From the NCBI GenBank assembly GCA_002422795.1, contig DITJ01000104.1:15324-79323 (forward strand): a stretch of DNA of 64,000 bases, read 5' to 3'. The notes under the pieces were generated by a model, which ran no database searches, was not told the origin of the DNA, and saw only the letters and a program-made list of their open reading frames with translations. Position 1 is the first letter of the stretch, and every line of letters starts with the position of its first letter. Shown one piece after another: positions 28,546 to 29,262 of the stretch. The stretch comes from Alphaproteobacteria bacterium UBA6187. Lineage in GTDB: Bacteria; Pseudomonadota; Alphaproteobacteria; Rickettsiales; UBA6187. A program made the position numbers and the translations under genes.

Positions 28546-29262
28546 ATGCATAAAAAGAAAAATACACTTTTAGTAGTAGATGGGGAACCACAAACAAACA
28601 AGATGTTGAATATTTTTCTTGATGGCGCAGATTATAAAATCATCAATAGTGAAAATGGTAAACAGGCCATCCGCCTATGTGTTTCTATAAAGCCTGATAT
28701 GGTTTTGCTTGAGCTTGGTCTGCCTGATATTGATGGCAAAGATGTAATTACGGCTATACGTGAATGGTCACAAGTACCGATTATAGTAATCTCGGGTAGA
28801 TCGGATGAGGAAGAAATTGCCGCAGCTTTAAATAAAGGCGCGGATGATTATATGGTTAAACCATTTAATATTGACATACTACTTGCCCGCATAAATGCGT
28901 GTTTACGAAAATCTGCAATCCATAAAGCTGGCGAGCCTGAGTTATATAACGGTAATATCCGTATAGATTTAGTAAGCCACCAGGTATTTGTAAATGATAC
29001 TTTAGTATCATTTACACCGAAAGAGTATGATTTGCTCAGGTATTTTATAGTCAACCGCGGTAAAATGCTTACCCACAGGGAAATTTTAATGGAAGTATGG
29101 GGAGCCGCTCACAGCGATGATAAGCAGTATTTACGCGTATTCATAGGACAAATCCGTGAGAAAATCGAAGAAAACCCATCAACACCAAAGATTATTATAA
29201 CAGAGCCAGGCGTTGGCTATTGTATGAAGGCGGTGCATGTGCCGGTTAAGATTGCGGCTTGA
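28546..29262 (+). CDS. OmpR/KdpE-family response regulator with non-canonical receiver (Glu at the phospho-acceptor position)
   Basis: 238 aa. The receiver and winged-helix domains align along their length with my recollection of KdpE. The acidic pocket reads VVDGE instead of the usual acidic pair (DD/ED; ED in my recollection of KdpE). The phospho-acceptor block reads MVLLELGLPDIDG instead of ..LDLGLPD.. . The conserved Ser (VISGRS) and Lys (VKPF) are kept. There is no adjacent histidine kinase. Confidence 0.85.
   Translation: MHKKKNTLLVVDGEPQTNKMLNIFLDGADYKIINSENGKQAIRLCVSIKPDMVLLELGLPDIDGKDVITAIREWSQVPIIVISGRSDEEEIAAALNKGADDYMVKPFNIDILLARINACLRKSAIHKAGEPELYNGNIRIDLVSHQVFVNDTLVSFTPKEYDLLRYFIVNRGKMLTHREILMEVWGAAHSDDKQYLRVFIGQIREKIEENPSTPKIIITEPGVGYCMKAVHVPVKIAA

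What the first reader, a model, noticed from the sequence alone, without database searches (positions are those of the whole stretch)
28546..29262. Orphan KdpE-like response regulator with Glu replacing the phospho-acceptor Asp and a broken acidic pocket
The receiver domain aligns well with KdpE/OmpR-family regulators, but two key positions differ. The phospho-acceptor block reads MVLLELGLPDIDG where the family has ..(I/L)LDLGLPD.. . The N-terminal acidic pair reads VVDGE instead of the usual two acidic residues (DD or ED). The conserved Ser (VISGRS) and Lys (VKPF) remain, and the winged-helix DNA-binding domain looks intact.

Asp-to-Glu at this position is a classic phosphomimetic change, so the protein may be constitutively active or phosphorylation-independent. 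No histidine kinase and no kdp genes are nearby. The gene sits 221 bp downstream of pelG, which makes it a candidate c-di-GMP-independent regulator of the pel-like locus.
Basis: partly seen in the sequence, partly recalled or inferred. Interest (0 to 1): 0.6.

Follow-up and report, generated by a model that had tools for sequence, protein, structure and literature searches.

The report
Kinase-independent regulator beside pel genes
This gene encodes a DNA-binding response regulator whose phosphorylation site has been permanently changed from aspartate to glutamate; it belongs to a well-known class of "aspartate-less" regulators, and the new part is that this small lineage sits beside a Pel-type exopolysaccharide gene cluster that it probably controls.

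Summary
ORF 28546-29262 (+) encodes a 238-aa OmpR/PhoB-type regulator that aligns without gaps to E. coli KdpE. The acceptor Asp52 is Glu56, the second acidic-pocket Asp9 is Gly13, and the Ser, Tyr and Lys positions are kept.

It is not an error. The same protein occurs in two independent assemblies. Five relatives (75-78% identical) also carry Glu, using both GAA and GAG codons, and have Asn or His at position 13. All 169 other family members keep Asp at the acceptor.

The six Glu proteins form one clade, with a canonical protein as sister. On one contig a Glu variant coexists with a canonical family member and its small sensor-less kinase, so they are paralogues. Helix alpha1, the kinase-docking face, varies unusually within the clade. 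The dimer face and DNA-binding domain are conserved.

Five of six variants lie directly after pelG. Upstream of pelD, five contigs share a footprint with a KdpE-box-like direct repeat (YTTAYN-N5-CTTATA).

It is best read as a phosphorylation-independent transcription factor of the pel operon. It is not a KdpE orthologue. Precedents exist: CmrT has the same DG(D/E) + Glu pattern, and ChxR has Glu. It is a new member of a known kind, of moderate interest.

The parts
28546..29262 (+). Gene for the 238-aa OmpR/PhoB-family response regulator with an aspartate-less (pseudo-)receiver domain
   Evidence: ORF and translation. Pfam Response_reg + Trans_reg_C. Gapless alignment to KdpE. AF2 model pLDDT 91.6.
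28579..28587 (+). Codons GAT-GGG-GAA = D12-G13-E14. The second acidic-pocket residue (the Mg2+ ligand, 'DD2') is Gly.
   Evidence: Position 13 is D in 96% of 169 canonical relatives and G/N/N/N/H/N in the Glu clade.
28711..28713 (+). Codon GAG = E56, at the position of the phospho-acceptor Asp (KdpE D52)
   Evidence: alignment; codons GAG or GAA in all six clade members. D in 169 of 169 other family members.
28588..28626 (+). Helix alpha1 (residues 15-27), the usual kinase-docking surface; unusually variable in this clade
   Evidence: 11 of 13 columns vary in the Glu clade, against 5.7 +/- 1.2 in 400 equally diverged canonical quintets; none of the 400 reaches 11.
28804..28911 (+). alpha4-beta5-alpha5 face (residues 87-122), including Y102 and K105; the family's dimerisation surface, conserved
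   Evidence: 15 of 36 columns vary, against 15.7 +/- 1.8 in canonical quintets. Invariant residues are listed.
28948..29229 (+). Winged-helix DNA-binding domain (residues 135-228). The recognition helix is residues 192-208 (29119-29169). R197, R204 and T219 are invariant and correspond to KdpE R193, R200 and T215.
   Evidence: Pfam; invariant columns; conservation test. The KdpE residues are needed for DNA binding (PMC3264566).
28325..28545 (+). 221-bp pelG-regulator spacer, with GGAGG at 28532-28536. The scan reports no terminator-like hairpin here.
   Evidence: The spacer is 89-208 bp in relatives.
23260..24324 (+). First gene of the cluster; PelD-like by position only
   Evidence: Weak GAF_3 hit, 23.8 bits, below the cutoff of 27. 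No match to solved PelD by sequence. Homologous first gene in L083, L084, L090, L170.
24314..25414 (+). Second gene; PelE-like by position (366 aa). Overlaps its neighbours by 11 nt.
   Evidence: Gene calls (offset 18545). No Pfam hit here. Faint TPR hits in relatives.
25404..26942 (+). pelF (GT4 glycosyltransferase)
   Evidence: NCBIfam PelF equivalog 431 bits, cutoff 100. Pfam DUF3492 + Glycos_transf_1.
26942..28324 (+). pelG
   Evidence: Pfam PelG 392 bits, full length.
23142..23158 (+). Candidate operator: direct repeat CTTATG-N5-CTTATA (6-bp half-sites in an 11-bp phase), about 55-66 nt upstream of the -10-like element
   Evidence: Conserved in position in 5 contigs; the second half-site CTTATA is invariant. 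It has the same geometry as the KdpE box TTTATA-N5-TTTACA (PMC3264566). Dinucleotide-shuffle test P about 0.001.
23178..23206 (+). Conserved TAGCTTCCTTATCCTTAT block over the -35 region, followed by TTTTGTAATATT (extended -10-like)
   Evidence: Invariant columns in the multi-genome alignment; coordinates. Its function as a promoter is inferred.

Best explanation
The gene encodes a phosphorylation-independent OmpR/PhoB-type transcription factor, i.e. an aspartate-less or 'pseudo-receiver' response regulator.

**Origin.** It arose in an uncultured alphaproteobacterial lineage by duplication of a canonical regulator that works with a small sensor-less histidine kinase. After duplication, the acceptor Asp became Glu. 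The Mg2+-binding Asp and the D+2 Gly were then free to drift. Helix alpha1, which normally docks the kinase, lost constraint. The alpha4-beta5-alpha5 dimer face and the KdpE-like DNA-reading residues stayed fixed.

**Proposed mode of action (inferred).** The protein dimerises without phosphorylation. It binds 11-bp-phased YTTATR direct repeats upstream of pelD and so controls transcription of the adjacent pelD-E-F-G cluster. Its output would be set by how much protein is made, possibly through read-through from the pel operon, rather than by a kinase.

**Shown:** the substitutions, their conservation, the paralogy, the pattern of constraint, the synteny and the conserved promoter footprint.

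**Inferred:** lack of phosphorylation, dimerisation, DNA binding at that site, and the direction of regulation.
For: 1. **Substitutions confirmed.** The alignment to KdpE is gapless.
2. **Fixed in a clade.** Six proteins carry Glu, using both Glu codons. Position 13 is G, N or H and position 58 is G, T, S or A. All 169 other family members have Asp56 and 96% have Asp13.
3. **Clade structure and paralogy.** The clade is monophyletic in 84 of 100 bootstraps, and canonical P0005 is its sister in 95 of 100. The canonical regulator encoded on the same contig as Glu variant P0006 branches elsewhere, so the two are paralogues.
4. **Canonical partners.** Canonical relatives sit beside a roughly 235-aa HisKA+HATPase kinase. 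The window has none.
5. **Pattern of constraint.** Helix alpha1 varies in 11 of 13 columns against 5.7 +/- 1.2 in canonical quintets (0 of 400 reach 11). The D-loop varies in 4 columns against 2.1. The dimer face varies in 15 against 15.7, and the DNA-binding domain in 33 against 37.3.
6. **Synteny.** pelG lies immediately upstream in the window, L083, L084, L170 and L090, while the outer flanks differ.
7. **Promoter footprint.** A roughly 60-bp conserved non-coding block upstream of pelD carries YTTAYN-N5-CTTATA in five contigs. Their PelD-like proteins are only 53-60% identical to the window's. Similar repeats occur upstream of canonical family genes, 9 observed against 0.19 in shuffles.
8. 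**DNA-reading residues.** R197, R204 and T219 are invariant and match the KdpE residues needed to bind TTTATA-N5-TTTACA.
9. **Precedents.** Glu is the commonest replacement in aspartate-less receivers, and the second acidic residue is usually lost (PMC4395418; PMC12632262). CmrT has DGD + Glu53, and its authors infer it to be constitutively active (PMC12548384).
Against: - No experiment shows DNA binding, dimerisation or lack of phosphorylation.
- The recognition helix is the same as in canonical paralogues, so the pelD box could equally be bound by the canonical, kinase-controlled regulator.
- The repeat is AT-rich. Its density upstream of family genes is no higher than in other non-coding DNA of the same loci: 0.45 against 0.36 per kb.
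- One clade member (P0002, L171) is not next to pelG.
- More distant pel clusters lack any such regulator.
- Only about four independent genomes carry the linkage.
- In ChxR and CmrT, changing the Glu alone does not abolish activity, so 'phosphomimetic' may be the wrong reason for activity.
- The rest of the source genome could not be searched for a kinase.
Confidence: 0.55

Rival explanations
1. The Glu variant does not act alone. It forms heterodimers with its canonical, phosphorylatable paralogue, or competes with it for the same YTTATR boxes. The small kinase's signal would then still reach the pel promoter, with the variant acting as co-activator or anti-activator.
For: - The alpha4-beta5-alpha5 face and recognition helix are as conserved as in canonical members and nearly identical to them.
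- In L083 the canonical regulator and kinase lie about 2 kb upstream of pelD, on the same contig as the Glu variant.
- Similar boxes occur upstream of canonical family genes.
- Precedents: BldM-WhiI heterodimers (PMC4125116), CmrR-CmrT pull-downs, and EssR-CenR in Brucella (PMC12548384).
Against: - There is no evidence that the window's genome carries the canonical pair; none is within 64 kb.
- Heterodimer formation cannot be tested with these tools.
- Response-regulator heterodimers are uncommon.
Confidence: 0.22
2. The regulator is kinase-independent, but its position after pelG is a historical accident of where the duplicate landed. It controls other genes, for example the stress-type regulon of the parental family.
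For: - P0002 is not beside pelG.
- The parental family neighbours small stress proteins (CsbD, Gly-zipper, DUF1328), not pel.
- In L083 the pel block sits next to the parental locus, consistent with a local duplication.
- More distant pel loci have no regulator.
Against: - Synteny with pelG is kept in four independent genomes (regulators 68-77% identical to one another) whose outer flanks are all different.
- The pelD upstream footprint carries the family-type direct repeat, including on L173. L173 comes from the same sample as unlinked P0002 and probably from the same organism.
Confidence: 0.15
3. It is still a conventional, kinase-controlled response regulator. It would be phosphorylated on another residue or by an unlinked orphan kinase, or the Glu would be covalently modified.
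For: - S83, Y102, K105 and D12 are retained.
- The receiver is still under purifying selection: 74% identity within the clade.
- The remainder of the genome was not searchable.
Against: - The acceptor Asp is absent in all six members, and the Mg2+ ligand is lost three different ways.
- No alternative Asp aligns to the acceptor.
- The kinase-docking helix alpha1 has lost constraint.
- Glu phosphorylation is not known in bacterial signalling (PMC4395418).
Confidence: 0.05
4. It is a sequencing error, a strain-specific mutation or a decaying pseudogene.
For: None found, beyond the general possibility in metagenome assemblies.
Against: - The identical protein occurs in two independent assemblies.
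- Glu is kept with synonymous codon changes across a clade.
- The reading frame is full length.
- The DNA-binding domain is 83% identical within the clade.
Confidence: 0.02

Closest known systems
CmrT of Clostridioides difficile (OmpR-family aspartate-less receiver; PMC12548384)
   Same: - REC + winged-helix architecture.
- Glu at the acceptor (E53).
- The acidic pair reads D-G-D, the same D-G-acidic pattern as D12-G13-E14 here.
- Other receiver residues are kept.
- A canonical OmpR-type partner regulator and a kinase exist in the system.
- It controls cell-surface and colony phenotypes.
- Its authors infer it to be active without phosphorylation.
   Different: - CmrT is co-transcribed with CmrR and CmrS and is judged not to be a duplicate of CmrR. 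Here the variant is a clear paralogue of the canonical family (62-77% identity) and is separated from the kinase.
- Different phylum, and no special sequence relationship.
- The target here appears to be a pel cluster.
ChxR of Chlamydia trachomatis (atypical OmpR/PhoB regulator; PMC3960148, PMC4395418)
   Same: - Glu at the acceptor position.
- No cognate kinase.
- Forms dimers and binds direct repeats without phosphorylation.
   Different: - ChxR lacks part of the pocket secondary structure and uses an unusual dimer interface. Here the receiver model superposes on KdpE at 0.6 A and the standard alpha4-beta5-alpha5 face is conserved.
- ChxR did not appear among the 60 listed sequence matches in PDB.
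E. coli KdpE
   Same: - Best-scoring characterised relative; gapless alignment over 219 residues, 36% identical in the structure-based alignment.
- The DNA-contact residues R193, R200 and T215 are conserved.
- The candidate operator has the same 6+5+6 direct-repeat geometry and a similar half-site (TTTATA).
   Different: - No acceptor Asp and no Mg2+ ligand.
- No KdpD and no kdpFABC.
- Scores 190 bits against the equivalog cutoff of 325.
- Even the canonical parent family pairs with a sensor-less 235-aa kinase, not KdpD.
BldM/WhiI of Streptomyces, and EssR/CenR of Brucella (regulator heterodimers; PMC4125116, cited in PMC12548384)
   Same: An atypical or orphan regulator works through pairing with a second regulator. 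This is a model for the rival explanation.
   Different: - BldM and WhiI are NarL/FixJ-type.
- There is no evidence of heterodimers here.
Known control of Pel in Pseudomonas aeruginosa. PelD as c-di-GMP receptor is in PMC2170427. FleQ-dependent transcription is from general knowledge and was not checked here.
   Same: A dedicated regulatory input is attached to the pelD-G part of the pathway.
   Different: - No OmpR-type regulator is part of the described Pseudomonas pel locus.
- Here pelA, pelB and pelC are absent from the locus, and the PelD-like protein is about 100 aa shorter than my recollection of the Pseudomonas protein (about 455 aa, not checked).

Membership tests
OmpR/PhoB-family response regulator | N-terminal receiver (CheY-like) domain | tested here: met
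   Pfam PF00072 80.5 bits, cutoff 30.2. AF2 (beta-alpha)5 fold; 0.6 A to the KdpE receiver.
OmpR/PhoB-family response regulator | C-terminal winged-helix Trans_reg_C domain | tested here: met
   Pfam PF00486 73.2 bits, cutoff 26.2.
OmpR/PhoB-family response regulator | Phosphorylatable Asp at the end of beta3, plus the acidic pair after beta1 | tested here: not met
   E56 and D12-G13.
KdpE orthologues | Score above the NCBIfam KdpE equivalog cutoff | tested here: not met
   190 bits against a cutoff of 325.
KdpE orthologues | Linked kdpD and kdpFABC | tested here: not met
   None in 64 kb. Canonical relatives pair with a 235-aa sensor-less kinase.
KdpE orthologues | DNA-contact residues R193, R200 and T215 | tested here: met
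   R197, R204 and T219 are invariant. Their role in KdpE is described in PMC3264566.
Aspartate-less receiver / pseudo-receiver regulators | Recognisable receiver fold that lacks the acceptor Asp | tested here: met
   Class definition from PMC4395418 and PMC12632262.
Aspartate-less receiver / pseudo-receiver regulators | The substitution is evolutionarily fixed rather than sporadic | tested here: met
   Six-member clade using both Glu codons.
Aspartate-less receiver / pseudo-receiver regulators | Activity independent of phosphorylation | not testable with these tools
   Indirect only: relaxed alpha1 and active site.
Pel exopolysaccharide locus | pelF and pelG present | tested here: met
   NCBIfam PelF 431 bits, cutoff 100. 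Pfam PelG 392 bits.
Pel exopolysaccharide locus | PelD (c-di-GMP receptor) and PelE | tested here: inconclusive
   The first gene has only a sub-threshold GAF_3 hit and no match to solved PelD. The second gene has no hit. Both assignments rest on position and on homologues in other pel loci.
Pel exopolysaccharide locus | pelA, pelB and pelC (modification and export) | tested here: not met
   Absent from the window. Present divergently beside pelD in relative L173. They may lie elsewhere in this genome.

The most novel reading that the evidence does not exclude
The Glu variant and its canonical parent form a natural 'locked-on plus switchable' paralogue pair that share one DNA motif and one dimer interface. 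The locked copy would be made from the pel operon itself and feed back on the pelD promoter, alone or as a heterodimer with the phosphorylated parent. This would give a bistable commitment to matrix production. It would also be a young and unusually clean example of how a pseudo-receiver evolves from a working two-component system: Asp to Glu first, then loss of the Mg2+ ligand three different ways, then decay of the kinase-docking helix.
Probability: 0.15. Interest if true: 0.55.

Novelty: new member of a known kind. Interest (0 to 1): 0.35.

Why it matters
Pseudo-receiver regulators are common, but a 2025 review states that how they are switched on and off is largely unknown (PMC12632262).

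This clade is a compact comparative system:
- A canonical parent with its kinase, a canonical sister, and six Glu variants at 62-78% identity to one another.
- A visible order of decay: acceptor first, then the metal ligand, then the kinase-docking helix.
- A concrete candidate target, the pelD promoter box.

It also points to a form of transcriptional control of Pel-type exopolysaccharide genes, in uncultured Alphaproteobacteria, that I did not find described. The practical value is modest because the organisms are uncultured and the class itself is already known.

Tried and rejected
- **Genome-contig scan with the single protein.** The patterns matched only unrelated Clostridia regulators at 33-38% identity, so the species name was not recovered. 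Cluster look-up gave no taxon either. MnmG relatives say only 'Alphaproteobacteria' or 'Rickettsiales' MAGs.
- **First box search pattern.** It was mis-spaced by one base and found only chance hits. GCTTCCWTAT with one mismatch was not enriched in the window.
- **Box enrichment against other non-coding DNA of the same loci.** Not significant: 0.45 against 0.36 per kb. Only the dinucleotide-shuffle control is significant. The box evidence therefore rests mainly on positional conservation.
- **Autoregulatory box upstream of the Glu-variant gene.** None was seen on reading those spacers (sequences).
- **PelD-like protein against solved structures.** No meaningful hit, so c-di-GMP binding could not be assessed.
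- **Rfam.** No riboswitch or known RNA in the pel-regulator region. The only match is a sub-threshold whalefall-1 hit on the palindrome.
- **Sequencing error and pseudogene.** Considered and rejected.
- **A different Asp as acceptor.** Rejected.
- **True KdpE.** Rejected.
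Full report
**1. The observation**

The ORF at 28546-29262 (+) starts with ATG, encodes 238 aa and follows a GGAGG ribosome-binding site at 28532-28536. Pfam finds a receiver domain (80.5 bits) and a Trans_reg_C winged helix (73.2 bits), both well above cutoff.

phmmer aligns residues 8-226 to E. coli KdpE without a single gap, E about 1e-49. 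In that register:
- D12-G13-E14 lie on KdpE E8-D9-E10.
- E56 lies on the acceptor D52.
- S83, Y102 and K105 lie on S79, Y98 and K101.
- The other Asp residues in the block also have Asp counterparts in KdpE, so no alternative alignment rescues an acceptor Asp.

An AlphaFold model built on 63 family sequences has pLDDT 91.6. Its receiver half superposes on KdpE receiver crystal structures at 0.6 A.

All sizeable ORFs of the window were scanned (gene calls), and tblastn with three family kinases found nothing. The window holds no histidine kinase, no other response regulator and no kdp gene.

**2. Not an error, and not strain-specific**

The identical protein is encoded on an ENA contig of 142 kb and on a Logan assembly of a different sequencing run.

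The database search found a large, tight family of about 238 aa at 65-72% identity. Its members read MHEKKNTILVVDDEPQI...LLDLGLPD, with a canonical acidic pair and acceptor.

The closest relatives behave differently. P0002, P0003, P0004 and P0006 (75-78% identical), plus metagenome locus L090, all have Glu at position 56, and N, N, N, H and N respectively at position 13.

Among 169 other family members:
- Position 56 is Asp in 169 of 169.
- Position 13 is Asp in 96%.
- Position 58 (D+2) is Gly in 98%. In the Glu clade it is G, T, T, S, A or S.

Both Glu codons occur, GAG and GAA. Position 13 reads GGG, CAC, AAC or AAT. AAY, CAY and the Gly family GGN are each one base from Asp GAY, although GGG itself differs at two positions. 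Glu is therefore maintained by selection, while the metal-ligand position has been lost in several ways.

**3. Where it came from**

A neighbour-joining tree rooted on E. coli KdpE gives these results:
- The six Glu proteins are monophyletic in 84 of 100 bootstraps.
- A canonical protein, P0005 (77% identical, DD/D), is their sister in 95 of 100.

On contig L083 the Glu variant P0006 lies downstream of pelG. A canonical family member (VVEDE...LLDLGLPD, 62% identical to the query) lies about 2 kb upstream of pelD, convergent with a 244-aa HisKA+HATPase kinase. That canonical copy branches elsewhere in the tree. The Glu proteins are therefore paralogues of a working regulator, not its orthologues.

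Canonical members usually sit within about 2 kb of a kinase of roughly 235 aa with no sensor domain (H-box SHDLKTPL). They also neighbour small stress-type proteins (CsbD, Gly-zipper, DUF1328) and never pel genes.

The host is an uncultured alphaproteobacterium, on these grounds:
- An FzlA-like gene lies at 21229-21897, scoring 269 bits, just under the equivalog cutoff of 300.
- MnmG relatives are named Alphaproteobacteria or Rickettsiales MAGs, the nearest only 81% identical.
- GC content is 40.6%.

**4. Pattern of constraint**

I compared the five distinct Glu-clade proteins with 400 random quintets of canonical proteins of the same mean divergence.

| Region | Variable columns, Glu clade | Canonical quintets | Quintets reaching the Glu-clade value |
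|---|---|---|---|
| Helix alpha1 (15-27) | 11 of 13 | 5.7 +/- 1.2 | 0 of 400 |
| beta3 and acceptor loop | 4 of 12 | 2.1 +/- 0.8 | 3.5% |
| alpha4-beta5-alpha5 face | 15 of 36 | 15.7 +/- 1.8 | 73.5% |
| DNA-binding domain | 33 of 94 | 37.3 +/- 2.8 | 95.8% |
| Recognition helix | 4 of 17 | 4.8 +/- 1.0 | 92.5% |

Helix alpha1 is the main surface through which receivers dock on histidine kinases. This is established knowledge from kinase-regulator co-crystal and specificity-rewiring studies and was not re-tested here.

Relaxation confined to the phospho-chemistry and the kinase-docking helix, with retention of the dimer face and DNA-reading parts, is what a regulator that has left its kinase but still dimerises and binds DNA should look like. 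This is my strongest, though indirect, evidence for phosphorylation independence.

**5. Link to the pel genes**

In the window the regulator follows pelD-like (23260-24324), pelE-like (24314-25414), pelF (25404-26942; NCBIfam PelF 431 bits) and pelG (26942-28324; Pfam 392 bits). The pel genes overlap by 11, 11 and 1 nt.

The order pelD-E-F-G-regulator recurs in L083, L084, L170 and L090 (L090 is nearly identical to L170). The genes beyond the block differ in every case: Usp and GST-like; a regulator-kinase pair; flagellin; AhpC.

The sixth member, P0002, lies on a 3.5-kb contig behind a low-complexity protein, not pelG. A pel locus from the same sample (L173) has the PelG closest to L084's (84%), just as P0002 is closest to L084's regulator (91%). 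The two contigs probably come from one organism in which the genes have been separated.

More distant pel loci (PelG 62-67% identical) have no regulator after pelG. The linkage is therefore lineage-specific, seen in about four independent genomes.

**6. A candidate operator**

The regions upstream of pelD in the window, L083, L084, L170 and L173 are otherwise unalignable. They share a block of about 60 bp, although the PelD-like proteins are only 53-60% identical to the window's.

The block has three parts:
- A direct repeat YTTAYN-N5-CTTATA. In the window it is CTTATG-AAAAT-CTTATA at 23142-23158. The second half-site is invariant in all five.
- The element TAGCTTCC(T/A/G)TA(T/C), 32-33 bp further on, over the -35 region.
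- TTTTG(C/T)AATATT, an extended -10-like element.

E. coli KdpE binds TTTATA-N5-TTTACA, two 6-bp direct repeats separated by 5 bp. It needs R193, R200 and T215 to do so (PMC3264566). The corresponding R197, R204 and T219 are invariant throughout this family, including the Glu clade.

YYTTAT-N5-YYTTAT repeats also occur within 300 bp upstream of canonical family genes. Examples are CTTTATGCATTCTTTAT and CCTTATTACACCCTTAT. There are 9 against 0.19 expected from dinucleotide shuffles. The pelD regions have 2 against 0.045 expected, P about 0.001.

Caveat: the motif is AT-rich. Measured against other non-coding DNA of the same loci, the density is not higher, and some loci are related. I rely mainly on positional conservation.

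The scan reports no terminator-like hairpin in the pelG-regulator spacer, so read-through from the pel operon is possible. No riboswitch or other Rfam family was found in the region.

**7. Mechanism proposed**

Shown:
- The acceptor and metal-ligand substitutions, fixed across a clade.
- Paralogy to a kinase-paired regulator.
- Loss of constraint on the kinase-docking helix, with retention of the dimer face and DNA-binding domain.
- Conserved synteny with pelDEFG.
- A conserved KdpE-box-like footprint upstream of pelD.

Inferred:
- The protein is not phosphorylated.
- It dimerises through alpha4-beta5-alpha5.
- It binds the pelD box and controls pel transcription. From the position of the box upstream of the -35 region, as I recall for KdpE at kdpFABC (not checked here), this is probably activation.
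- Its activity is set by its abundance.

Whether the Glu acts as a phosphomimic is open. In aspartate-less receivers Glu is the commonest replacement (26%) and the second acidic residue is kept in only 29% (PMC4395418). [quoted passage not shown]

The main rival is action through, or against, the canonical paralogue, by heterodimers or competition for the same box. This is plausible because the two share interface and recognition helix. It also has precedents in BldM-WhiI, CmrR-CmrT and EssR-CenR.

**8. Comparison with what is known**

*What it works like.* CmrT of C. difficile is the nearest analogue. It is an OmpR-type regulator with Glu53 and a D-G-D motif, the same D-G-acidic plus Glu pattern as here. 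It coexists with a canonical partner regulator and a kinase, and it affects cell-surface phenotypes. ChxR of Chlamydia is the classic Glu-bearing OmpR-type regulator that dimerises and binds direct repeats without phosphorylation.

*Membership.*
- It is an OmpR/PhoB-family protein by both domains.
- It fails the family's phospho-acceptor feature, so it belongs to the aspartate-less or pseudo-receiver subclass.
- It is not a KdpE orthologue: 190 against 325 bits, and no kdpD or kdpFABC. It does share KdpE's DNA-contact residues.
- OmpR-type aspartate-less receivers already numbered 609 in 2015, about 2% of that architecture.

**9. Verdict**

The thing is ordinary in kind but tidy in detail. I rate it a new member of a known kind, interest 0.35.

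What is new:
- The conserved attachment to a pelDEFG block in an uncultured alphaproteobacterial lineage.
- The candidate operator.
- The clear evolutionary trajectory from a kinase-paired parent.

Not supported:
- The label 'KdpE'.
- The claim 'c-di-GMP-independent'.
- Any firm statement that Glu makes the protein constitutively active.

Noticed in passing
window 23260-28324; compare L173:1-3873: The window's pel cluster consists only of pelD-like, pelE-like, pelF and pelG. No pelA, pelB or pelC lies anywhere in the 64 kb. In relative L173, a GH114 (PelA-like) gene, a 747-aa gene and a 903-aa TPR (PelB-like) gene lie divergently next to pelD. The export and modification genes must be elsewhere or missing.
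   Followed up: partly
window 29272-29424: A roughly 150-bp palindromic element lies between the regulator and the erythromycin-esterase-family gene. Its arms are GCGGTGCGGTTCCTCCTCCCTTGAGGGAGAGGG and CCCTCTCCCTCAAGGGAGAGGAAACTACACGGC. It is unique in the window and gives a sub-threshold Rfam whalefall-1 hit (22.6 bits against 37). Similar G/C-rich 'CCCTCTCCC...GGGAGAGGG' palindromes flank the regulator in L084 and L171. It may be a small mobile or REP-like element marking rearrangement points.
   Followed up: partly
L085, L087, L088, L083:1776-3327 and about 60 metagenome loci: The canonical parent family pairs an OmpR-type regulator with a kinase of about 235 aa that has no sensor or transmembrane domain (H-box SHDLKTPL). 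Small stress-type genes lie nearby (CsbD, Gly-zipper_YMGG, DUF1328, DUF3309), and YTTATG-N5-YTTATG boxes lie upstream. It is a widespread two-component system in environmental Alphaproteobacteria for which I found no characterised member among the NCBIfam hits; I did not search the literature for it.
   Followed up: partly
L090:6359-7792 and L170:2228-2557 / L090:4564-4893: In the L170/L090 lineage, the pelE-like gene matches only about 110 aa of the window's 366-aa protein. In L090, pelG carries an in-frame stop, splitting it into 122-aa and 354-aa ORFs in one frame. This may be decay of the pel cluster in that lineage, or a sequencing error.
   Followed up: no
P0017, P0059, P0120, L147 (family members outside the Glu clade): Four canonical-clade proteins have lost the second acidic residue (F, C, S, S at position 13) and changed D+2 (N, S, D, T), but keep the acceptor Asp. 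P0059 still has the small kinase nearby. These look like independent partial erosions of the active site in the same family.
   Followed up: no
window 29460-31834 and L170:6540-8727: An erythromycin-esterase-family gene (Pfam 430 bits, but far below the NCBIfam Ere cutoffs), a CBS-domain gene and a small unknown gene accompany the regulator in both the window and L170, in a different order and orientation. This is a second, weaker conserved neighbourhood.
   Followed up: no
L171:1347-2408: Upstream of the unlinked Glu variant P0002 lies a 353-aa low-complexity, Pro/Ser/Thr/Ala-rich protein with no Pfam hit. It contains an internal repeat (…SGVRSLQ(R/G)M…).
   Followed up: no
window 40509-45444 and 46880-51153: There is a PilM/PilN fusion-like 726-aa gene and a secretin (type IV pilus or T2SS-like cluster). 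The mnmG-rsmG-parA-parB block indicates that the window lies near the chromosomal origin.
   Followed up: no
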